64,000 bases of DNA from a virus, in IMG/VR virus record IMGVR_UViG_3300031992_000044; one strand, 5' to 3'. A program made the position numbers and the translations under genes. A model generated the notes under the pieces. It had not been told where the DNA came from and searched no databases. It saw only the letters and a program-made list of their open reading frames with translations. This document shows positions 6,208-59,185 of this stretch, one piece after another (position 1 is the first letter of the stretch; each line of letters starts with the position of its first letter).

Positions 6208-7982
6208 CAAAGAAAGATTATAAATTTATAAATAATACAGGACAGTTGCCTGGATTTTCTGGCGGATTAACATCTTCGGATGATTATCAGAATAATATTA
6301 TGTAGTGGATGGACAATCTACAACAATATAATTCTGGAAATAAAAATGTAGCTGGGGCAGTAGATACCTCGATTTTACCAACACGTGGAAACTTTGATAC
6401 TGCAGGAATGAGCGCAGCCGGACAACTTGCATCAAGAAAGGATATTCCGTATTAGAGCACAGAAACAAAAAATATAGCAAAAGGTATAAACGTTGGTAAT
6501 ATACAAACAGCAGCGTCTGCTGCACCAGGACTGATTGGAAGTTTACATAACAGTTGGACAAACTACGATAGTGTAAATGATATAGAAGCTCAATATAAAC
6601 CTACATCTGCTACAACTGCGGGTATTGGATGGACAAAAATGGTAAAAGCCAAAGATGGCAAGTTGCCTGGATATAAAGGAGGTGCATTAGGAAATATAGC
6701 TGGTGCAACGGCGTCTGGAGCTGCGATGGGTTCTGTTGCAGGACCATGGGGTGCTGTTGTCGGTGGTGCTGTCGGTTTGATTGGTAGTGGCATAGGTGAA
6801 ATATTTAGTGAAGATACACAAAGGGAGAATGAAAGAATTGCTAGATAGAATATAATACTTCGCAATAATAATGAACGAAGTGGAGCGATTAGTACTTCTA
6901 TGTAGTTAAATAATGCTATAAAATACGGCGATCAATATTCTCAACCATTATTTGGTCATGCTAATGGAAAACTTCCTAAGTTTGATATAGGAAAAGTATC
7001 AACATCGTTTGGTTAGGCTTTAGGAGAAGCTACAGCACGTGTATCTAACGGAGAAGTTATAGCTAACAAATATACAGGTACAATGTATAGAGTTCCCGGC
7101 TTAAAGAACAACAAAGATGGGAAACTTGCTTCTCTTAGTGATAGTGATACTGTTATTACAAACAAACATGGACTTTCTGATTATGCTTGGCGTACTGGAG
7201 ATATAGAAGGTGCTGAGGAAATGATGAAGATGTTTGGCAATCCTGCATATAAAAACGGAAGGCTTCCGAAATGTGCAGAAGGTTGGTTGGGCAATGCGAT
7301 ACCTTCGGCATTAGGAAGTATAGCAAGCCTCGCGCAATATATTGATGCTAAGAACAGTACGCCATATTATCCGCATACATATGTTGCTAATCCGTACGAA
7401 TTACAAGGTCTTACTACACTTGCTGGGCTTAGAATTAATCCTTATCCTATTACACAACAACTACGTAATGCAGAAGCTAGAACCAATAGAGCTATTGATA
7501 TCGCAGGAGGATTGAGTGGTAGTCAACGTACAGCAGCTAGATTAGCCAATCTTAATACTACACAGAACAATATATCTAACCTTTTGTCTAATATACAGCA
7601 GCAGAATAATGCTTATAGAGCTAGCTATGCTCAGGCTGCTATTAATGCAGGACAAGCATCTAGACAGGCTAGAATGGCTGCTAATCAGTGGGATCTCGAT
7701 ATGTACTCTAAAGCACATGCTGCACGTAATAGAGGTATACAAACAGGTATAGCTAACATGCTTAGTCAAATACAGCAATATCAAGCTAATGAGTTCAAGC
7801 GTAGACAGTTCAATGAGACTATGGATTTGTATAGAGACGATATGAACATGCGTAAATAGAATATGCAGTGGTTACAGAGTCAGCCTTCGCGCGGAATTGG
7901 TTTGGATATAGCAGCTTATGATAACACAAGGCCGTTATATTAGTACGATGAAAACGGAAATCTTAAGAGAGTTAGATCATGA
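6198..7982 (+). CDS. virion internal/tail-associated protein with a Gly/Ala-rich hydrophobic segment, TAG-recoded
   Basis: ATG at 6198 overlaps the previous stop. Frame 3 runs to TGA 7980-7982 with 7 in-frame TAGs, joining ORFs 6639-6848 and 7083-7859. Glycine-zipper-like GGALGNIAGATASGAAMGSVAGPWGAVVGGAVGLIGSGIG. Confidence 0.6.
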
Positions 7983-44068: not shown

Positions 44069-44117
44069 TTTGATAACAGTTTAGAGGGTTTGACATATTT
44101 TTGGGAAAATACATTTG

Positions 44118-44188
44118 TTGGGTCACACGGATTCGAACCATGACTAAGGGAACCAAAATCCCTTGTGCCGCCATTACACCATAACCCA
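44118..44188 (-). tRNA. tRNA-Gln (anticodon UUG)
   Basis: Minus strand: TGGGTTA TG GTGT AATGGCG GCAC A AGGGA TTTTGGT TCCCT TAGT CATGG TTCGAAT CCGTG TGACCCA A. All four arms are canonical. Confidence 0.8.
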
Positions 44189-50394: not shown

Positions 50395-50790
50395 TCATGA
50401 TGTATTGAAGGGTGTAGGTGGATTAGCTAAAACGTGAATTGTTGGTTGGTCACGACTTCCGTTCGTGACATTAACAGTAGTGAATCCTTTTGCAATTAGA
50501 GGCATTTGTGCCTGACTCACAGGTTCTGAAGTTGCCTTCTTGGGTGCTTTAGCTGTGTCACCAGGAAGCATATAAAATGTCCCTGGATAACTCGGCAAAG
50601 CCTCCTGTGTGGGCGATACCTGAATGCATTTAGACTCACTCTGCTCGGTAGAACGCACTACCATTGTCGTCACTGCATAACCTAAGGTCCATGCGGTGAA
50701 GAATATCCAGAAGAGTTTGTTACTCTCATTGTACTTAGCTAAACCAAGTATAATGAGAACTCCGAGGATATACAGAGCTAATGTCATCAT
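50395..50790 (-). CDS. two-TM membrane protein translationally coupled to the sigma factor
   Basis: ATGA overlap with the sigma gene stop. LALYILGVLIILGLA and LFWIFFTAWTLGYAVTTMVV helices. Confidence 0.6.
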   Translation of the reverse strand: MMTLALYILGVLIILGLAKYNESNKLFWIFFTAWTLGYAVTTMVVRSTEQSESKCIQVSPTQEALPSYPGTFYMLPGDTAKAPKKATSEPVSQAQMPLIAKGFTTVNVTNGSRDQPTIHVLANPPTPFNTS

Positions 50791-51362
50791 GTTGTTTTAA
50801 TTTTTAAATGTTTTTGAATTCGCTTTCGAGTCCTTGATAACGTCGACTTTATAGTTCCTGTTGGGATATTCAAGGCCTCACTAATCTGTTCTACTGTCAT
50901 ATTATCTTCGTAGAATAACCTAAGAACCTTACGATTGGTCTCAGATAATTTGTCGAATTCCGTCAGTAAAGATTCATAAGTCATACGATTGATTATTTCC
51001 TCTTCAGCTGAAACATTAGTATCATCTGATGGTATTTTACCATCCGACTGCCCTAGTGCTACTTTACGGTTTTCCATTCTACGTAGATAATCGATAGCAG
51101 TTCGATTAGCTATAATTCGCAGCCAACCCCCGAAGGAGTCGTATTCTGTGAATGTCGAGAGTTTATCATACACTTTAAGAAATACTATGTTGGTGAGGTC
51201 TTTAGCCTCGTCCATGTCTTTAATATACTGAAATAGTATATTATCTACAAAGCTTTTATACTTGTAGAAAAGTGTATTAAAAGCAGATTCATCACCTGCT
51301 TGCGCCTTTTTGATTATCCCAACCTCTTCTGAGGTGATTCTAGGATTCTGTGGCATAATCAA
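50787..51362 (-). CDS. ECF-type (sigma-70 family group 4) RNA polymerase sigma factor
   Basis: Region 2: FNTLFYKYKSFVDNILFQYIKDMDEAKDLTNIVFLKVYD ... GWLRIIANRTAIDYLRR. Region 4 HTH: RKVLRLFYEDNMTVEQISEALNIPTGTIKSTLSRTRKRI. Confidence 0.8.
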   Translation of the reverse strand: MIMPQNPRITSEEVGIIKKAQAGDESAFNTLFYKYKSFVDNILFQYIKDMDEAKDLTNIVFLKVYDKLSTFTEYDSFGGWLRIIANRTAIDYLRRMENRKVALGQSDGKIPSDDTNVSAEEEIINRMTYESLLTEFDKLSETNRKVLRLFYEDNMTVEQISEALNIPTGTIKSTLSRTRKRIQKHLKIKTT

Positions 51363-52393: not shown

Positions 52394-52407
52394 TTGATAT
52401 GTTTTTG

Positions 52408-52481
52408 TGGTCCTTGTTGGGCTTGAACCAACGACCCCCACCTTATAAGGGTGGTGCTCTAACCAACTGAGCTAAAGGACT
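52408..52481 (-). tRNA. tRNA-Ile (anticodon UAU)
   Basis: Minus strand: AGTCCTT TA GCTC AGTTGGTTA GAGC A CCACC CTTATAA GGTGG GGGTC GTTGG TTCAAGC CCAAC AAGGACC A. The only irregularity is an A1:C72 mismatch. Confidence 0.75.
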
Positions 52482-52619: not shown

Positions 52620-54485
52620 TTATTGTATAAGTTTTATGGATTTTTCTTTAAGTAGTGTATTGACATCTTTGTTATCTTTCTTTATCTTATAACCTTTTAT
52701 CTTTACACCTTTTTCATAAATTTCCATAATACTATACTCAGCATCGGCATACCTTCGTTCTGACTGACCGTTGCTATTTATATATCGTGGCTTAGACAAT
52801 GATGGAAGTGCTACTGTATATCCGGATGTAGACTTCTCATTATTATCTGCTCTTGTGTATACATATGCGTTTTGTGCATATGGACTGACTATATTATAGT
52901 CATGATTGACAAAATGTCCATCGTTTTCCCAACTTATATGAGAATGTCCACTGAAGAATATAACATTCTTATATTTGTTGTTGAGTTTATTTAAGAACCA
53001 GAATTCAATACCAGTTAAGGCGTTTGAACCTATACTATAAAGTTTTGATTCTTTTATATCTTTTTCTCCAGCTTTATGTATATCTGCATATTGCCATGCT
53101 CCTTGTTGAGGTATTCCTAAACTATTACCTGCTTTATTCGGCAAGAAATGATGAGTAAATACATAGATCTTCTTATCTGGATTATTTTCAATTATTTCTT
53201 TTAACCAAATAAGACTGTTTGGACTATAATACTGGTAATTATACTACATATCACCGTTACCATAATCGGTATCTTGTACGTATTCAACCATTCTCTTGAT
53301 ATATGGATCGTTTGATTTGGTATCGATAATTGTTCTTGCATGAATCATACGATCATGCCACTTATCATTGATAGGCCAAATATCATTACCATAATCTACA
53401 GAAAGGAATACAAAGATATCATCATCTTTCTTAAGCCAATAGTTAAGTTTAGAATAACCATTTCTTCCGTGACTACCACCGTCATTCCACATAATGAGAT
53501 TATCTTTTACCTCATTCCAGTGGCTATTTACGTAGTTGTTTGCACAACGGATAGCTTCATCTGATATACCTCCTTTATTTGCATCCCATATCGAACTTCC
53601 TGTATATCCTCCTTTTCTTGCATATAAATCAACATGGTCGTTATATGAGAAGAAGTTCATGTCAGCTTGACCAACAGGAGTAGATTTGCCTTTTTCTAAA
53701 TCAAATACTATGCGTCCTCTACCAGGTACAATACCATTGATACCTTGACCAGTAGGCCATAAATTTGCAATTCTCTGGTTTACATTGGCATTATATCCTG
53801 AAATACATTCGGAATTCTTTTTACCAGTTCTTACATCACCTTGTCTAGATTCAAATAGTCCATAGAAATCATGATTACCAAGTGGTGAGAACAACCTAAG
53901 ACCTGCTACTTGCCAATAAGGAACATCATACATTTCTTTTAATTCCTTATAATCAATATCACATACTGCTTCTGGATGTCTTTGATAAGCATTTGTAGCC
54001 GATTCTGAAATATCTCCACAACTCATTACACATTTTATGTTCTGATCTTTAACAAACAGATCCATACAACGTTTGAAGTCTGCTTCATCCCACCAATCAT
54101 CATTGTCTTTTGAGATATGAAGATCTGATATCAGACCTACAGAATATTTATAATTTCCAAGGTCTACATCTTCATCTCCTTTCTCATCATCTTTTATGAT
54201 TGTAACAGGACACCACAATTGAGCAATGTCGTTTGTCATTCCTAAATCAGGTCTTCCATTATCTCCTATGGAGAATATGAAATGTGTAGTATCGTCGTGA
54301 ATAATTGCATTATATGTATATTCTTTACTATTTTGCTAATCGTGTATCCTTGTATATCCGATTTTCTCTCGTCTTTCATGAATACATGAATAACATTCAG
54401 TAGCAAACTAGGCATGCAATGCAACTGTTTCTCCAACTCGACCTTTTATTTCTGGTCCAATTAATTTTATTTCTTCTTTGTTCAT
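52620..54485 (-). CDS. calcineurin-like metallophosphoesterase, TAG-recoded (3 in-frame TAG)
   Basis: Motifs ISDLHIS, SCGDIS and LGNHDF lie upstream of TAG 53244-53246. YVFTHHF and FFSGHSHI lie downstream in the same frame. An N-terminal extension to ATG 54485 passes TAGs at 54408-54410 and 54336-54338. Confidence 0.7.
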
Positions 54486-54486
54486 A

Positions 54487-55737
54487 TCAATTCGATAATA
54501 AATCTGTTTGATTCTCTGCTAATATAATATACCTTGCACCACTCTTATCTGGATCAAGACTTGCATATGGATTTTTCCAATATAGATTCAGATGATATGT
54601 ATAACCTCTCTAAAGTTTTACGTTTTGTGTAGGAGCAGCTGCATACATATTCTGAGACCCACTGATTGCAGTTTTTGATCTTGAATATTCCCTTGTATAA
54701 AGAAATATTGGATAACCATATGCATTATTGATAGAATTCATTAAATACCAAGTGCCATCAGTAAAATCAGTAGTAGGCATATATATACCAGTAATCGTTG
54801 TTATTTCTGGTGAGGTATAAGATCCGCCAACTGGTATAATTATATTATTTTTGTGATAATCCCCATTTTGATCAGGTATACCTATATTGGCATCAACTAT
54901 ATTAGCGTACGCTTGTGTTGAATTTGTCCAATCGTTTTGATTTCTTGATAAATTTAAAGTTACTCTTCCTGAAAGTCTTGCTTCAGAACCAGTATTATTT
55001 GTTATGACAAATTTAATTCCATTGCCTCCTGTATATTCAGCTGTACTGTATACTGTAGTTTCAGGTGCATGATCATCTCCAGATGGTGTAGGAGTTGGAT
55101 CAGGATCTGTGTCATATGTAGGTGTTTGTCCTCCACCCATCCACTCTGTAGTATTATTTGGTATTGTTACAGTAAATGATCCTCCATCTTGAAATATATA
55201 ACTTTCACTTACTCCAGATGTTGTGAAAGTATAATTGCTTCCATTTATTTTATATCCACAATTACATAAATAAGATGTTTCAGAATACTGTTCTCCTGAT
55301 GCAAAATGTAATCCTTCGTATTCTCTTTCAAATATTACAGTACATTGTGCAGATAAACCTTGTTCTATTCTATTATTTGTTGTTACTGTTCCTGTCACAG
55401 ATTGTATTTGCTGATTATCCTCATCCCACAATAATAACTGCAATTGGCGGATGTTTAATCTACCACCAGCATTATTCACAATCATTGCTGTCATAGTTAT
55501 ACCGTCTTCTGGTGTAGGAGTTGGTGTTGGTTCTGGATCGTCAGGAATAATAGGATCTGGTGTAGGTGGTATAAATGAATCTATATTACCTATCTGTATT
55601 ACAAGCCCTTCTTCTGGAATTTCCTCAGTATCAGTACCGCTAGCGTGTATTATCTACACCTAATCGCTGGTTATCTTCAGAATACTTGGCTGATCGATAA
55701 CGTCATCTTTATTTGTAAAATCGTATTTGTTTAACAT
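54487..55737 (-). CDS. fibre/adhesin-like protein with Pro/Thr-rich linkers, TAG-recoded (alternative core 54610-55494)
   Basis: ATG 55737 is in frame with track ORF 54610-55494 through TAGs at 55660-55662 and 55654-55656. It continues through TAG 54610-54612 to TGA 54487-54489. Linkers PPTPDPIIPDDPEPTPTPTPEDG and DTDPDPTPTPSGDD. Confidence 0.5.
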
Positions 55738-55762
55738 GTTAATTTAGATTTGATTGTATTTG

Positions 55763-55833
55763 TAGCGAGTGTGGGACTCGAACCCACCAGTTTACAGATT
55801 TACTGAAACTTACCGACTGCGAACAGACTCGCT
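55763..55833 (-). ncRNA. tRNA-like element with extended anticodon-arm hairpin
   Basis: Minus strand: AGCGAGT ... AGTTT-CAG-TAAAT-CTG-T-AAACT G GTGGG TTCGAGT CCCAC ACTCGCT A. The 7-bp acceptor and T arm are perfect. There is no proper D stem, and the anticodon arm is an 8-bp stem with a 5-nt loop. Confidence 0.45.
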
Positions 55834-55861
55834 CCACCCACTTAGGTAGGGTTCACCGACT

Positions 55862-55973
55862 TCACGCTGCCTCCTTGAGACCCGTGTAGTCAACGATATT
55901 ATAATCGCCGTTTAAATTTATATCAAAGCGTTTAATGTCTTACTTTCCACTGCTGTCAAATCCAGTCAGGCCC
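55862..55973 (-). ncRNA. ssrA-like: tmRNA-like coding piece (5' acceptor strand, D-loop analogue, P2a, candidate tag frame)
   Basis: Minus strand from 55973: GGGCCUG A CUGGAUUUGAC AGCAG ... Then the frame GGC GAU UAU AAU AUC GUU GAC UAC ACG GGU CUC AAG GAG GCA GCG UGA (55909 to 55862) gives GDYNIVDYTGLKEAA. Confidence 0.5.
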
Positions 55974-56061
55974 ATAATGCCCACATACGGCCTACGAGTG
56001 GGCTGCGCAGATAGTCACCCCTTATTCGCTCTATGTGACAGATAAAACTTGGGACTTGCCG

Positions 56062-56096
56062 TGGACCTGGAGGGATTCGAACCCTCGTCCAACAGC
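56062..56096 (-). ncRNA. ssrA-like: tmRNA-like acceptor piece (P2b, T arm, 3' acceptor strand, discriminator A)
   Basis: Minus strand: GCUGU UGGAC GAGGG UUCGAAU CCCUC CAGGUCC A. The 3' strand pairs with GGGCCUG at 55973-55967, giving G3:U70. Confidence 0.55.
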
Positions 56097-56289
56097 TCAT
56101 TCTGGGACACGCTAAGATTCTTGTGTAGAACGTTCTGATGATCGGTCAAAACATTCAATTTAAGGCTATTTTCAGGCTCTCTGAGACGTTTTCTAGGCTT
56201 TTGTGGGTAGCTATTCCACTCAAGCTTTAAAATGGCTTAGAAAGGCTTATTTTAGCCTTAAATAAAGGTTGAATACGTTGGTCTACCAC

Positions 56290-56587
56290 TGGCTCGAAGG
56301 CTCACAATAGGGCGTATTCGCATTCTTGAAACTGTTTTACAGCAAAAGCTGACTCTATGGTTCAGTAAAACTCATAGTTCTTGATCTAATGCCCACATAT
56401 TATTACACCGTGTGGACGGTGGTATCACCCCGTGGCACTGGCTCAAAGGCTCGGACCTAGATTGCGAGTGTCGCTCCCTGTCGGACTGAATATAGTTAAT
56501 ATAAAGGCGAACTTCAGAAACTATATTATTACCGATCTTCTATAACGTATTCTGCTTTCTTTTTATAGAGTATTGGCTCAAAGGCTC
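56290..56587. repeat. three copies of TGGCTC(A/G)AAGGCTC
   Basis: Copies at 56290-56303 (G variant), 56439-56452 and 56574-56587. Copies 1 and 3 are enclosed by different stems (GAATACG/CGTATTC and AGAGT/ACTCT). Confidence 0.75.
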
Positions 56588-56618
56588 GGACTCTACGGAT
56601 GATGGGTGCTCTCAGAGA

Positions 56619-57128
56619 TTACCAATCGTTGAGGTACCAACGATACTCAGCCTCGTAAGAGTTACGGAGTTCTTCCACACCCTTGCGATACTCTTCGTCG
56701 ATTTCGCTCTCCTTCTTGCGCATCTCCTCGTTGAGCTTCTTGAGTTCACGCTTGTGTTCAACAGCCGTGAGGCGCTCCTTCTCGTCGATCTTGGTCTTAG
56801 TGGGCACCAGCTCACCGTCCTTGATCTCACACTTCACACCCAGGTAGCGCTCCAGGAGTGCATGGGTCTGCTCTAGACCATACTTCTCCAGCTTGTCCTC
56901 TGCCTTGCGCTTGCGCTTCATCAGGACCTTCTTGCGATTGTCGTAGGTGGCAACACAGATCTGAATCTTGGCCTCCTGCTTCTTCTTGTCGTCCTTACCC
57001 TTTTCGATGTCCTCCATAGCGGCGACAACAGCTTTGTCGGTCATCATGTTCGCGTTGCGCAGGCCGTCCTGCACTTCTTCCTGCTCAGCAGCAGCTGCAG
57101 CAGCTTTTGTGTCTTTTTTCTCTGCCAT
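56619..57128 (-). CDS. hypothetical coiled-coil, charged protein (GC3-rich)
   Basis: 169-aa ORF. The start lies in the TTATCAAAAATG context. Confidence 0.6.
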   Translation of the reverse strand: MAEKKDTKAAAAAAEQEEVQDGLRNANMMTDKAVVAAMEDIEKGKDDKKKQEAKIQICVATYDNRKKVLMKRKRKAEDKLEKYGLEQTHALLERYLGVKCEIKDGELVPTKTKIDEKERLTAVEHKRELKKLNEEMRKKESEIDEEYRKGVEELRNSYEAEYRWYLNDW

Positions 57129-58577: not shown

Positions 58578-58601
58578 AATTGTAAATATTGGTGAGTTTT
58601 G

Positions 58602-58672
58602 TAGTCTCTAGGAGAGTCGAACTCCTCTTCTAACAATGAAAATGTTATGTCCTACCGATAGACGAAGAGACC
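58602..58672 (-). tRNA. tRNA-Glu (anticodon UUC)
   Basis: Minus strand: GGTCTCT TC GTCT ATCGGTA GGAC A TAACA TTTTCAT TGTTA GAAG AGGAG TTCGACT CTCCT AGAGACT A. Confidence 0.75.
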
Positions 58673-58993: not shown

Positions 58994-59110
58994 ATGTAAT
59001 GAACACTTTCATTTAAATAACTTAAATAAACATTAAAAGTACTATGAAAATAAACCTTTAACACATTATTAATTTATCAATTAAGAAATGTCACACGCTT
59101 CACAGCGTTG

Positions 59111-59185
59111 TGTGGGAGAATGGATTCCAACCACTACCTACAGATGCAGAATCTGTCGCTCTGATGGTTATTAAGCTACTCCCAC
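59111..59185 (-). tRNA. atypical tRNA-Gln (anticodon CUG)
   Basis: Minus strand: GTGGGAG TA GCTT AATAACCATCA GAGC G ACAGA TTCTGCA TCTGT AGGT AGTGG TTGGAAT CCATT CTCCCAC A. All stems pair. The D loop lacks GG, the T loop is TTGGAAT, and position 37 is C. Confidence 0.6.

What the first reader, a model, noticed from the sequence alone, without database searches (positions are those of the whole stretch)
55862..56398. Circularly permuted (two-piece) tmRNA-like gene in a phage that reassigns a stop codon
On the minus strand, 56096 to 56062 reads GCUGU UGGAC GAGGG UUCGAAU CCCUC CAGGUCC A. This is the layout of the 3' end of bacterial tmRNA (GGAC, T arm, 7-nt acceptor strand, A discriminator), with no encoded CCA. 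88 nt further downstream, 55973 to 55947 reads GGGCCUG A CUGGAUUUGAC AGCAGUGG. That segment pairs perfectly with the acceptor strand and gives the G3:U70 wobble, the alanine identity element. It also matches the conserved tmRNA 5' block (GGGGCUGAxUGGxUUCGAC), and its ACAGC can pair with the GCUGU next to the T arm (helix P2). 64 nt after the 5' end lies a short frame, GGC GAU UAU AAU AUC GUU GAC UAC ACG GGU CUC AAG GAG GCA GCG UGA (GDYNIVDYTGLKEAA). It ends in Ala-Ala as tmRNA tags do. Because the acceptor half precedes the 5' half, the gene order is the permuted one known from two-piece tmRNAs of alpha-proteobacteria, some beta-proteobacteria and cyanobacteria. I know of no such arrangement in Bacteroidetes or their phages. 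The 12-mer ATGTGGGCATTA sits immediately upstream of the 5' half (55986-55975) and again at 56398-56387, so it may mark the starts of the two pieces. A tRNA-like element (55833-55763) follows the candidate tag frame and could define the 3' end. A trans-translation RNA is a plausible accessory when TAG termination is being suppressed and ribosomes stall or read through host stops.
Basis: partly seen in the sequence, partly recalled or inferred. Interest (0 to 1): 0.85.

Follow-up and report, generated by a model that had tools for sequence, protein, structure and literature searches.

The report
Two-piece tmRNA gene in crAss-like phage
This gut phage carries a real, rearranged and shrunken copy of its Bacteroidales host's ribosome-rescue RNA (tmRNA) that encodes its own peptide tag. 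Related phages already have the same gene annotated in public databases, so it is a sound but not new find whose biology is unstudied.

Summary
ARAGORN calls a permuted tmRNA at 55771-56151 (-) with tag GDYNIVDYTGLKEAA, and Rfam's tmRNA_permuted model passes its gathering score. In 26 related phage sequences the proposed helices are 94.6% paired, against 38-45% in slid controls. G3:U70, G1-C72 and G2-C71 are invariant, and acceptor positions 4-7 covary.

The window is a crAss-like phage (Crassvirales, near Suoliviridae/Oafivirinae) whose late genes need TAG read-through. The tRNA-like domain matches standard ~397-nt tmRNAs of Bacteroidales: 28 nt are exact in 41 genomes. The phage gene, however, is permuted and has one pseudoknot at most. 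It encodes a different conserved tag and is always followed by a tRNA or tRNA-like element, which probably sets the 3' end of the coding piece. The attP-remnant idea is rejected.

The arrangement is not unknown: RefSeq annotates tmRNA in cr273_1, cr272_1, cr131_1 and cr124_1, and a 2022 supplementary table lists crAssphage genomes as "Permuted". The repeated 12-mer does not mark the piece starts.

The link to TAG recoding is consistent (4 of 4 genomes; the tag never ends in TAG) but has no negative controls. This is a new member of a known kind, of moderate interest.

The parts
56128..56188 (-). Conserved upstream block CGTCTCAGAGAGCCTGAAAATAGCCTTAAATTGAATG, followed by a hairpin (GAATGTTTTGA / loop CCGATCA / TCAGAACGTTC, 56156-56128). 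Candidate promoter or leader; probably not part of the mature RNA.
   Evidence: Aligned with cr273_1, cr131_1 and Bohxovirus. The hairpin stem covaries and the loop C[TC]GATC[AC] is conserved in many relatives, but some lack the hairpin. Function is inferred.
56062..56120 (-). Acceptor piece (5' end approximate). P2c strand 56118-56110, P2b strand 56109-56106, P2a strand 56096-56091, GGAC 56090-56087, T arm 56086-56070 (GAGGG TTCGAAT CCCTC), acceptor 3' strand 56069-56063 (CAGGTCC), discriminator A73 at 56062.
   Evidence: T arm and acceptor stem 100% paired in 26 sequences. 28 nt (56089-56062) are exact in 41 Bacteroidales genomes. Sequence conservation starts near 56120.
55974..56061 (-). 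Intervening sequence of 88 nt, removed on processing. Its first base C (56061) is the encoded C74.
   Evidence: Length in relatives ranges from 16 to 169 nt with unrelated sequences. It always starts with C, and CCA is encoded in only about 5 of 30. The same 88-nt type occurs in L032 and L077.
55834..55973 (-). Coding piece. Acceptor 5' strand GGGCCTG 55973-55967; D-loop-like ACTGGATTT 55966-55958; P2a strand 55957-55952; P2b 55939-55936; P2c 55930-55927 and 55924-55922; A/U-rich single strand 55921-55910.
   Evidence: The 5' 22-24 nt are near-identical to Bacteroidales tmRNA, and the AAATTAACT|GGC resume context seen in relatives is shared with the hosts (the window reads AAATTTAAAC|GGC).
55862..55909 (-). 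Tag reading frame: resume codon GGC, 15 codons GDYNIVDYTGLKEAA, stop TGA (55864-55862). It contains two hairpins: GCGAT/ATCGT (55908-55904 / 55897-55893) and GTCTC/GAGGC (55881-55877 / 55873-55869).
   Evidence: 30 relatives: stop is TGA in 20, TAA in 10, TAG in 0; the DYT codons vary only at third positions.
55836..55857 (-). H-type pseudoknot after the stop codon. GGT 55857-55855 pairs with ACC 55847-55845, which lies in the loop TACCTAAGT of the hairpin ACCC/GGGT (55852-55849 / 55839-55836).
   Evidence: helices 7-9. Compensatory changes: GGU/ACC becomes CGU/ACG in L125 and AGU/ACU in L002/L121.
55763..55833 (-). tRNA-like element. Acceptor stem AGCGAGT/ACTCGCT, T arm GTGGG TTCGAGT CCCAC, discriminator A, but no usable anticodon loop. 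Probable RNase P punctuation that creates the 3' end of the coding piece.
   Evidence: An equivalent element is seen in all 30 relatives (by eye in L136, where the automated pick failed). In five of them it is a standard-threshold ARAGORN tRNA (Met-CAU x3, Gln-UUG, Ile-UAU); L124 is tRNA-like with an undetermined anticodon. Rfam tRNA-Sec scores only 21 bits here. The processing role is inferred.

Best explanation
This is a genuine phage-encoded, circularly permuted (two-piece) tmRNA gene. It belongs to a family carried by TAG-recoding crAss-like phages of the Suoliviridae/Oafivirinae type.

Inferred mechanism:
1. The locus is transcribed on the minus strand as one precursor.
2. 56069-56063 pairs with 55973-55967 to form a tRNA-like acceptor/T-arm module that is sequence-identical or near-identical to the Bacteroidales host tmRNA.
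3. Host RNase P cuts 5' of G55973. The 88-nt intervening sequence is trimmed back and CCA is completed on the encoded C74.
4. RNase P also cuts 5' of the downstream tRNA-like element (55833), which creates the 3' end of the coding piece.
5. An acceptor piece of about 60 nt and a coding piece of about 140 nt stay together through the acceptor stem and a long three-part P2 helix.
6. Host AlaRS charges the RNA (G3:U70, A73), and host SmpB and EF-Tu deliver it to stalled ribosomes.
7. Translation resumes at GGC 55909, adds (A)GDYNIVDYTGLKEAA, and stops at UGA, a codon the phage does not reassign.

Shown here: the sequence and structure anatomy, covariation, coding-type conservation, identity to the host tRNA-like domain, and the recoding context. 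Inferred: transcription, processing sites, charging, SmpB use, tagging, and the fate of tagged proteins. The tag ends in EAA, whereas the Bacteroidales tags recovered here end in LAA or IAA.
For: - Two detectors agree: ARAGORN calls a permuted tmRNA with a tag, and Rfam RF04321 scores 49.4 against a gathering score of 47.
- Thirty-three loci (30 unique) in viral contigs, mostly about 100 kb long, share the layout.
- Covariation was counted on 26 sequences. 94.6% of cells are paired, against 38-45% when partners are slid. 23 pairs change on both sides. In 500 shuffles, none reached the observed value on any of the five measures. The T arm and acceptor stem are 100% paired. G3:U70, G1-C72 and G2-C71 hold in 26 of 26. 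There are nine different acceptor-stem versions.
- The tag frame keeps its length and stop position. The DYT codons vary only at third positions, using all four Thr codons. Tags end in AA or VA. The stop is never TAG (TGA 20, TAA 10).
- The tRNA-like domain is host-matched. The 28-nt T arm + acceptor 3' strand + A73 is exact in 41 genomes, all Bacteroidia (most named Bacteroidales). In the 38 with an ARAGORN call it forms the 3' end of a standard 394-403-nt tmRNA. The 5' 22-24 nt and the resume context are also shared.
- Some relatives carry a group I intron in the T loop of this gene, bounded by intact exon halves.
- Synteny with the RefSeq-annotated tmRNA genes is conserved, upstream of an ECF sigma factor.
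- The window, cr273_1, cr131_1 and cr124_1 all recode TAG. The three RefSeq genomes also carry tRNA(CUA); none lies inside this window.
Against: - There are no expression, processing, charging or tagging data.
- The Rfam score is only 2.4 bits above threshold. The lineage-specific models fail: beta_tmRNA scores 39 against a gathering score of 84, and the alpha and cyano models give no hit.
- Three of the four canonical pseudoknots are absent and no PK1 could be supported.
- A single-sequence fold of the precursor is not more stable than shuffles (z = -0.77).
- Much of the tag frame lies in covarying hairpins. Part of the apparent peptide conservation is therefore RNA-structure conservation.
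- The family was partly collected with a tag-based pattern, which biases tag conservation.
- No SmpB gene was found in the window, so function depends on the host protein.
Confidence: 0.8

Rival explanations
1. The RNA is a decoy or inhibitor. Its host-identical tRNA-like domain would titrate host SmpB (and perhaps AlaRS) to shut down or redirect host trans-translation, and the 'tag' region would be a structured tail that is not translated.
For: The tRNA-like domain is an exact or near-exact host mimic. Most of the tag region sits in covarying hairpins and a pseudoknot. There is precedent: the tRNA-like-domain-only tmRNA of mycobacteriophage DS6A, and a similar molecule that inhibits tmRNA (PMC4131195 and PMC11915505).
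Against: Frame length and stop position are conserved. The DYT codons vary only at third positions. Tags end in Ala-Ala. The host-like sequence upstream of the resume codon is kept. TAG stops are avoided. A pure decoy has no need for any of these.
Confidence: 0.1
2. The locus is an attP-type remnant: a fragment of the host ssrA 3' end left by, or used for, site-specific integration, with the rest resembling tmRNA by chance.
For: 28 nt of the T arm + acceptor 3' strand + A73 are an exact copy of the ssrA 3' end in 41 Bacteroidia genomes, most named Bacteroidales. This is the kind of identity block that att sites show.
Against: A complementary 5' half follows on the same strand in all 33 loci and covaries with the 3' half, even where the latter differs from the host sequence (CACGTCC/GGGCGTG, ATGGTCC/GGGCCAT, ACGCTCC/GGGGCGT). 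The P2 helices, the tag frame and the pseudoknot are conserved. No integrase was found among 20 ORFs examined, including all neighbours within 6 kb and the large ORFs of that strand.
Confidence: 0.02
3. The family is real, but this particular copy is a decaying pseudogene, or the detector calls are false positives.
For: The Rfam score is borderline. The downstream tRNA-like element is degenerate.
Against: The window copy keeps every conserved feature: 7/7 acceptor pairing with G3:U70, an intact T arm, all P2 segments, a full-length frame with a stop, the pseudoknot and the tRNA-like element. The Rfam E-value is 1e-6, and ARAGORN agrees independently.
Confidence: 0.05

Closest known systems
Permuted tmRNA genes annotated in crAss-like phages cr273_1, cr272_1, cr131_1 and cr124_1 (RefSeq NC_055904, NC_055903, NC_055902, NC_055899; marked 'Permuted' in Table S1 of Buchholz et al. 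2022, PMC9004378)
   Same: Homologous gene at 70-75% nucleotide identity. Same permuted layout, the same tag core N[IV][VA]DYT, the same position upstream of an ECF sigma factor, and the same TAG-recoding genome type.
   Different: The sequence, the type of intervening sequence and the tag variant differ (GDYNIVDYTGLKEAA here, against GNINVVDYTGLQEAA, GNYNVVDYTHVA and GNVNNIVDYTNVA). Those records carry only an automatic annotation. I found no published description of the anatomy.
Standard one-piece tmRNA (SsrA) of Bacteroidales (Prevotella, Bacteroides, Petrimonas and others), 394-403 nt, tags such as GENNYALAA
   Same: The T arm, acceptor 3' strand, A73 and C74 are identical. The 5' 22-24 nt are near-identical (GGGC[CT]TGACTGGATTTGACAGC). 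The context upstream of the resume codon is similar, the resume codon is GGC, and the tag starts G-[EDN]-x-N.
   Different: The host gene is collinear and about twice as long as the two inferred phage pieces combined, and by established knowledge of tmRNA it has PK1-PK4. Its tag is 9-10 residues ending in ALAA (AIAA in two). In 4 of the 38 host-type genes the tag stop is TAG. The phage gene is permuted, has one pseudoknot at most, and encodes a 15-residue tag ending in EAA, never followed by TAG.
Two-piece tmRNAs of Alphaproteobacteria, some Betaproteobacteria and Cyanobacteria (Rfam RF01849, RF01850, RF01851; the merged model is RF04321)
   Same: The acceptor half lies upstream of the coding half on one strand. 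tRNA-processing enzymes are expected to cut the precursor into two base-paired RNAs. The merged model's gathering score is passed.
   Different: None of the three lineage models is satisfied. The tRNA-like domain is of Bacteroidales type. This argues for a separate permutation event or a host-adapted lineage.
Other phage-encoded tmRNAs: one-piece in cluster C mycobacteriophages (Bxz1) and Bacillus phage G; two-piece in the marine myophage Melnitz and pelagimyophages; tRNA-like-domain-only in DS6A
   Same: A virus carries its own trans-translation RNA and depends on host SmpB (PMC4131195, PMC9004378).
   Different: Melnitz-type genes are alphaproteobacterial in type and carry a glutamine riboswitch. 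Here the domain is Bacteroidales-type, the RNA is much reduced, and it ends in a tRNA-like punctuation element.

Membership tests
tmRNA (SsrA) | 7-bp acceptor stem with G3:U70 and discriminator A73 (alanine identity) | tested here: met
   GGGCCTG (55973-55967) pairs with CAGGTCC (56069-56063), and A73 is at 56062. In 26 relatives the stem is 100% paired, G:U at position 3 holds in 26 of 26, and positions 4-7 covary.
tmRNA (SsrA) | T arm with a GGUUCGAAUCC-type T loop, plus GGAC and the D-loop substitute (UGGAUUUGAC) | tested here: met
   56090-56070 and 55966-55955. These are identical to Bacteroidales tmRNA. The T stem is 100% paired, and 4 of its 5 pairs covary.
tmRNA (SsrA) | Helix P2 joining the tRNA-like and mRNA-like parts | tested here: met
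   Three segments were counted: P2a (84.6% paired despite alignment slippage), P2b (99%) and P2c (97.8%). All three show changes on both sides.
tmRNA (SsrA) | Short internal reading frame with a resume codon, ending in Ala-Ala and a stop codon | tested here: met
   55909-55862 encodes GDYNIVDYTGLKEAA*. The frame is conserved in 30 relatives, with third-position-only variation in the DYT codons.
tmRNA (SsrA) | Four pseudoknots, PK1-PK4 (typical of the family, not universal) | tested here: not met
   Only one pseudoknot, after the stop codon, is supported (helices 7-9). The candidate CCA/UGG helix and a PK1-like pairing got no support. Reduced tmRNAs are known, so this lowers typicality rather than membership.
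tmRNA (SsrA) | 3' CCA end | tested here: inconclusive
   Only C74 is encoded in the window, and CCA is encoded in about 5 of 30 relatives. Most of the Bacteroidales host genes recovered here also show only C74 within the ARAGORN-called gene. Post-transcriptional addition is therefore assumed.
tmRNA (SsrA) | Works with SmpB; is alanylated; performs trans-translation | not testable with these tools
The biochemistry cannot be tested here.
Two-piece (permuted) tmRNA | The acceptor half precedes the coding half on the same strand, and the merged covariance model is satisfied | tested here: met
   ARAGORN flags the gene as permuted (tmRNA*). RF04321 scores 49.4 bits against a gathering score of 47.
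Two-piece (permuted) tmRNA | Membership of the alpha, beta or cyano lineage | tested here: not met
   beta_tmRNA gives a partial match of 39.3 bits against a gathering score of 84. The alpha and cyano models give no hit at E <= 10.
Two-piece (permuted) tmRNA | The precursor is processed into two stable RNAs | not testable with these tools
   This is inferred from the tRNA-like module and from the tRNA or tRNA-like element that always follows the gene.
crAss-like phage (Oafivirinae-type) permuted tmRNA | Sequence homology, conserved tag core, and synteny with the ECF sigma factor | tested here: met
attP / ssrA 3' fragment of an integrative element | Identity block with the host ssrA 3' end | tested here: met
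   The exact 28-mer occurs in 41 Bacteroidia genomes, most named Bacteroidales.
attP / ssrA 3' fragment of an integrative element | Only a fragment of the gene is present, next to an integrase | tested here: not met
   The 5' half, P2, the tag frame and the pseudoknot are all present and covary. No integrase domain was found in 20 ORFs scanned.

The most novel reading that the evidence does not exclude
crAss-like phages hold a separate lineage of two-piece tmRNA, distinct from the alpha, beta, cyano and mitochondrial ones. On this reading it arose from the one-piece Bacteroidales tmRNA by permutation and loss of three of the four pseudoknots, and its 3' end is set by a decayed tRNA. It would be kept because TAG-recoding infection needs a rescue system that TAG suppression cannot break. 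The stop of its tag frame is never TAG, whereas 4 of 38 host-type tmRNAs end their tag frame in TAG. Its conserved ...DYTGL[KQ]EAA tag would give rescued proteins a fate different from the host ALAA degron.
Probability: 0.3. Interest if true: 0.75.

Novelty: new member of a known kind. Interest (0 to 1): 0.5.

Why it matters
Phage-borne tmRNAs are known, but what they do is not. This family has three useful properties:
- it sits in abundant gut phages (Crassvirales);
- its tRNA-like domain copies the host's exactly, while its tag differs from the host's;
- it occurs in genomes that switch the meaning of TAG late in infection.

If it is functional, it gives a direct test of whether code-switching phages must bring their own ribosome-rescue system, and whether they re-route rescued proteins away from host proteolysis.

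The RNA is also a compact natural tmRNA of about 200 nt in two pieces with one pseudoknot, which could serve structural and engineering work. For annotation, the practical lesson is that the gene ends at a tRNA-like punctuation element, and that relatives can carry T-loop introns or ORFs inside the gene.

Tried and rejected
- **Default RNAalifold on the family alignment.** It recovered only the T arm, the acceptor stem and part of P2c, so the other helices were set by hand and then counted.
- **Extra P2 helix CCA/UGG (56105-56103 with 55949-55947).** It showed many non-pairs and was dropped. A PK1-like pairing of GGAAAG with CUUU, judged by eye on the alignment, showed no compensatory change.
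- **Single-sequence folding of the 287-nt precursor.** It gave the core helices but no significant stability (z = -0.77).
- **The 12-mer as a boundary signal.** Rejected.
- **SmpB in the window.** Nothing found.
- **Testing the TAG-recoding link across all family loci.** This failed because the fetched loci (1-15 kb) cover early genes with few TAGs. Only three RefSeq genomes could be checked, in 48-50 kb stretches.
- **Megablast of 24 kb of the window against phage records.** It matched mainly the DNA polymerase region, at about 75% identity, so no close sequenced relative is available.
- **Automated picking of the 5' strand of the downstream tRNA-like element.** It is unreliable at 6/7 pairing, which is roughly what chance gives. 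No formal covariation count is therefore reported for that element, only its presence in all 30 relatives and the real tRNAs in five loci.
- **Literature searches.** No paper was found on Crassvirales with trans-translation, or on tmRNA with stop-codon recoding.
Full report
**1. The observation**

Reading the minus strand confirms each stated segment.
- The T arm and acceptor 3' strand lie at 56096-56062, ending in A73. Only C74 follows; CCA is not encoded.
- An 88-nt spacer follows.
- The 5' half GGGCCTGACTGGATTTGACAGC starts at 55973. Its first seven bases pair 7/7 with 56069-56063 and place G3 opposite U70.
- A 15-codon frame runs from GGC at 55909 to TGA at 55864-55862.

ARAGORN independently reports a permuted tmRNA at 55771-56151 (-) with the tag GDYNIVDYTGLKEAA. 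Rfam's merged model for permuted tmRNA (RF04321) matches 55862-56110 at 49.4 bits, against a gathering score of 47, with E = 1.1e-6 over the whole window. The older lineage models do not reach threshold: beta_tmRNA scores 39 against 84, and the alpha and cyano models give nothing.

**2. What the window is**

If TAG is read as sense, the + strand block 73-31442 becomes a run of long ORFs. One has 5260 codons and 36 in-frame TAGs. Most ORFs of the minus-strand block (31.5-63 kb) carry none.

The minus-strand block encodes a PDDEXK nuclease, an AAA ATPase, a Toprim primase, an AAA_24 protein, a DnaB-like helicase and an ECF sigma factor. No integrase domain was found in the 20 ORFs scanned. Its DNA polymerase region is about 75% identical to crAss-like phages cr273_1 and cr272_1 (Crassvirales, Suoliviridae, Oafivirinae). 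The tmRNA gene sits in an 870-nt non-coding stretch, in a minus-strand block that also holds four tRNA genes.

**3. It is already annotated in relatives**

A sensitive blastn of the locus hits the feature 'transfer-messenger RNA, SsrA' in RefSeq records of cr273_1, cr272_1 and cr131_1. A second query adds cr124_1.

Buchholz et al. 2022 (PMC9004378) ran ARAGORN on 18,146 phage genomes. Their Table S1 lists 14 CrAssphage genomes, most marked 'Permuted', including these four. The 2025 tmRNA database paper (PMC11915505) scanned RefSeq viruses and found 79 phage sequences. It also counts 48 permuted instances in Bacteroidota assemblies.

I found no paper that discusses these genes.

**4. The family and its structure**

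Two pattern scans of viral contigs gave 33 loci (30 unique sequences) with the same layout. One scan used a T-arm pattern and the other a tag pattern. Most of the contigs are about 100 kb long.

The acceptor stem appears in nine versions, for example GGGCGTG/CACGTCC, GGGCCAT/ATGGTCC, GGGGCGT/ACGCTCC and GGGCCTA/TAGGTCC. All are fully complementary, and all keep G1-C72, G2-C71, G3:U70 and A73.

On a 26-sequence alignment (A2) I wrote a structure and had it counted:
- 94.6% of cells form standard pairs, against 38-45% when partners are slid by 1-3 columns.
- 23 of 43 pairs change on both sides.
- None of 500 shuffles reaches the observed value on any measure.

The supported helices are:
- the acceptor stem and the T arm (100% paired);
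- a three-part P2 between the 5' region of the acceptor piece and the coding piece: P2a 56096-56091 with 55957-55952; P2b 56109-56106 with 55939-55936; P2c 56118-56110 with 55930-55922;
- a hairpin at the end of the frame (55881-55869);
- an H-type pseudoknot after the stop codon, where GGU 55857-55855 pairs with ACC in the loop of the hairpin 55852-55836. Compensatory CGU/ACG and AGU/ACU versions occur in relatives.

A further hairpin at the start of the frame (55908-55904 with 55897-55893) covaries. This explains the linked D/N, I/V and V/A changes in the tag. No PK1, PK3 or PK4 equivalent could be supported.

Sequence conservation begins near 56120. The mature RNA is therefore probably about 60 nt + CCA plus about 140 nt, roughly half the size of the host's ~397-nt tmRNA.

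**5. Is the frame read?**

Frame length and stop position are conserved. Tags end in AA or VA. The three codons between the two hairpins (DYT) vary only at third positions: both Asp codons, both Tyr codons and all four Thr codons are used. This also holds in the 12 sequences collected by the T-arm pattern, although family membership was later defined by a DYT-coding motif.

The stop is TGA in 20 sequences, TAA in 10 and TAG in none. One caveat applies: half of the frame lies in covarying RNA helices, and part of the set was fished with a tag pattern, so peptide-level conservation is overstated by the raw alignment.

**6. Relation to the host**

The exact 28-mer (T arm + acceptor 3' strand + A73) was searched in one genome per bacterial species. 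It was found in 41 genomes, all Bacteroidia and most named Bacteroidales (Prevotella, Bacteroides, Petrimonas, Paludibacteraceae, Dysgonomonadaceae and others). In the 38 with an ARAGORN call it is the 3' end of a standard one-piece tmRNA of 394-403 nt, with tags such as GENNYALAA.

Those genes begin GGGCTTGACTGGATTTGACAGCGGG, and Prevotella sp. CAG:617 begins GGGCCTG. They resume at ...AATTAACT|GGC. Both features match the phage family. The phage RNA therefore carries a host-type tRNA-like domain and resume context on a permuted, stripped-down body with a different, longer tag ending in EAA. Four of the 38 host-type genes end their tag frame with TAG.

**7. The attP alternative**

The first half of that test is met. 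The explanation still fails, for three reasons:
- the complementary 5' half follows in every locus and covaries with the 3' half, even where the latter departs from the host sequence;
- P2, the frame and the pseudoknot are conserved;
- no integrase was found.

**8. The ends of the pieces**

Downstream of the pseudoknot, every one of the 30 unique loci has a second acceptor-stem-plus-T-arm module (by eye in L136, where the automated pick failed). In five loci it is a real tRNA by ARAGORN at standard threshold: Met-CAU in three, Gln-UUG in one and Ile-UAU in one. A sixth (L124) is tRNA-like with an undetermined anticodon.

In the others, including the window (55833-55763), the acceptor stem and the TTCGAAT-type T arm are kept. 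The middle is either short (14-23 nt) or lacks a usable anticodon loop.

The simplest reading is tRNA punctuation. RNase P cutting 5' of this module would release the 3' end of the coding piece, just as RNase P cutting 5' of G55973 would release its 5' end. This step is inferred, not shown.

The spacer between the halves varies from 16 to 169 nt, with unrelated sequences. It always starts with C74 and rarely encodes CCA.

The 12-mer ATGTGGGCATTA is found only in the window's spacer type, and only partly in L032 and L077. In both window copies it forms the 3' arm of a hairpin. The second copy lies far upstream of the conserved region. It does not mark piece starts.

**9. Link to recoding**

Late genes of the window, cr273_1, cr131_1 and cr124_1 all contain many in-frame TAGs, while TGA and TAA never occur in frame. 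The three RefSeq genomes carry tRNA(CUA); none lies inside this window.

That makes four of four, but all belong to one subfamily and there is no negative control. The other fetched loci were too short to test. The link is plausible on three grounds:
- TAG read-through should raise ribosome arrivals at mRNA 3' ends;
- the phage tag never ends in TAG;
- some host-type tags do end in TAG.

It remains unproven.

**10. Verdict**

This is a real, conserved, structured RNA gene: a two-piece tmRNA of Bacteroidales type carried by TAG-recoding crAss-like phages. It is a new member of an already annotated group.

As far as the searchable literature shows, the following anatomy has not been described:
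- a tRNA-like domain identical to the host's;
- a single pseudoknot;
- tRNA-like 3' punctuation;
- a phage-specific tag;
- intron-bearing relatives.

Confidence that this is a functional tmRNA gene is about 0.8. The main rival is an SmpB decoy, at about 0.1.

Noticed in passing
L127 3440-4450; L131 5260-6100; L137 7072-7900; L126 (minus strand) 7024-7270: In several relatives the permuted tmRNA gene is interrupted in the T loop by a group I intron (Rfam RF00028, 66-87 bits). The 5' exon ends ...GGACGAGGGT and the 3' exon resumes TCGAATCCCTCCAGGTCCA. Between them lies a small opposite-strand ORF (MEEQKKYMQNRRLVTFICDNCG...) that looks like a homing endonuclease. The tmRNA database paper tallies intron and permuted as separate gene forms, so a gene that is both may be unreported.
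   Followed up: partly
L130 and L140; L127, L130 and L060 intervening or flanking sequence: Two relatives have a non-canonical T loop (AGACATA or AGGCATA in place of TTCGAAT). In L127 and L130 the spacer between the two tmRNA halves holds an ORF of about 55 codons (MKGYIVLYKVNDKD...GGDDYESNA..FFHEL). In L140 and L060 the same ORF lies outside the gene.
   Followed up: no
window 56150-56620 (-): The 470 nt upstream of the tmRNA gene are non-coding and repeat-rich. There are three copies of GAGCCTTYGAGCCA (near 56590, 56455 and 56305) and a series of AAGCC(T)/AGCCT units spaced about 10-12 nt apart (56270-56160). The block CAGAGAGCCTGNAAATAGCCTTAAATYGAATG is conserved even in a Bohxovirus genome that showed no tmRNA gene in the 6.1-kb stretch fetched (L003). 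This may be a promoter or regulator-binding region.
   Followed up: partly
window 54487-55743 (-) and 52620-54587 (-); cr273_1 gp58 (L190 36241-37365): The genes directly downstream of the tmRNA/tRNA cluster, on the otherwise TAG-poor strand, need TAG read-through (3 and 4 in-frame TAGs; 2 in the cr273_1 homologue). Recoded genes are therefore not confined to the late-gene strand.
   Followed up: partly
window 50787-51362 (-): An ECF-type sigma factor (Sigma70_r2 and r4, E about 1e-12) lies a few genes downstream of the tmRNA. The same order is kept in cr273_1, cr131_1 and cr124_1.
   Followed up: partly
window 44117-44188, 52407-52481, 58601-58672, 59110-59185 (-): The window has four tRNA genes (Gln-UUG, Ile-UAU, Glu-UUC, Gln-CUG) but no tRNA(CUA). 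In relatives the amber suppressor sits next to the dUTPase gene, so in this phage it probably lies outside the window.
   Followed up: partly
L102/L111 and L081 (viral contigs): Other permuted tmRNA genes have the same T arm and a GGGCC(C/T)G acceptor stem but different tags (GNENYAYAVAA; GENNANDCKVIKMIPYGQEEMRKAA). Permuted tmRNAs with Bacteroidales-like tags in viruses are therefore more diverse than the DYT family studied here.
   Followed up: no
L149-L189 (Bacteroidales genomes): Four of the 38 host-type standard tmRNAs (for example Prevotella sp. KH2C16) end their tag frame with TAG. An amber-suppressing phage would make ribosomes read through that host tag.
   Followed up: no
window 55893-55908 (-): The first six codons of the tag frame form a covarying hairpin (GCGAT/ATCGT; GCAAT/ATTGC and GCAAC/GTTGT in relatives). 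The amino-acid changes at tag positions 2, 5 and 6 are therefore driven by RNA pairing, and the resume codon is partly base-paired.
   Followed up: yes
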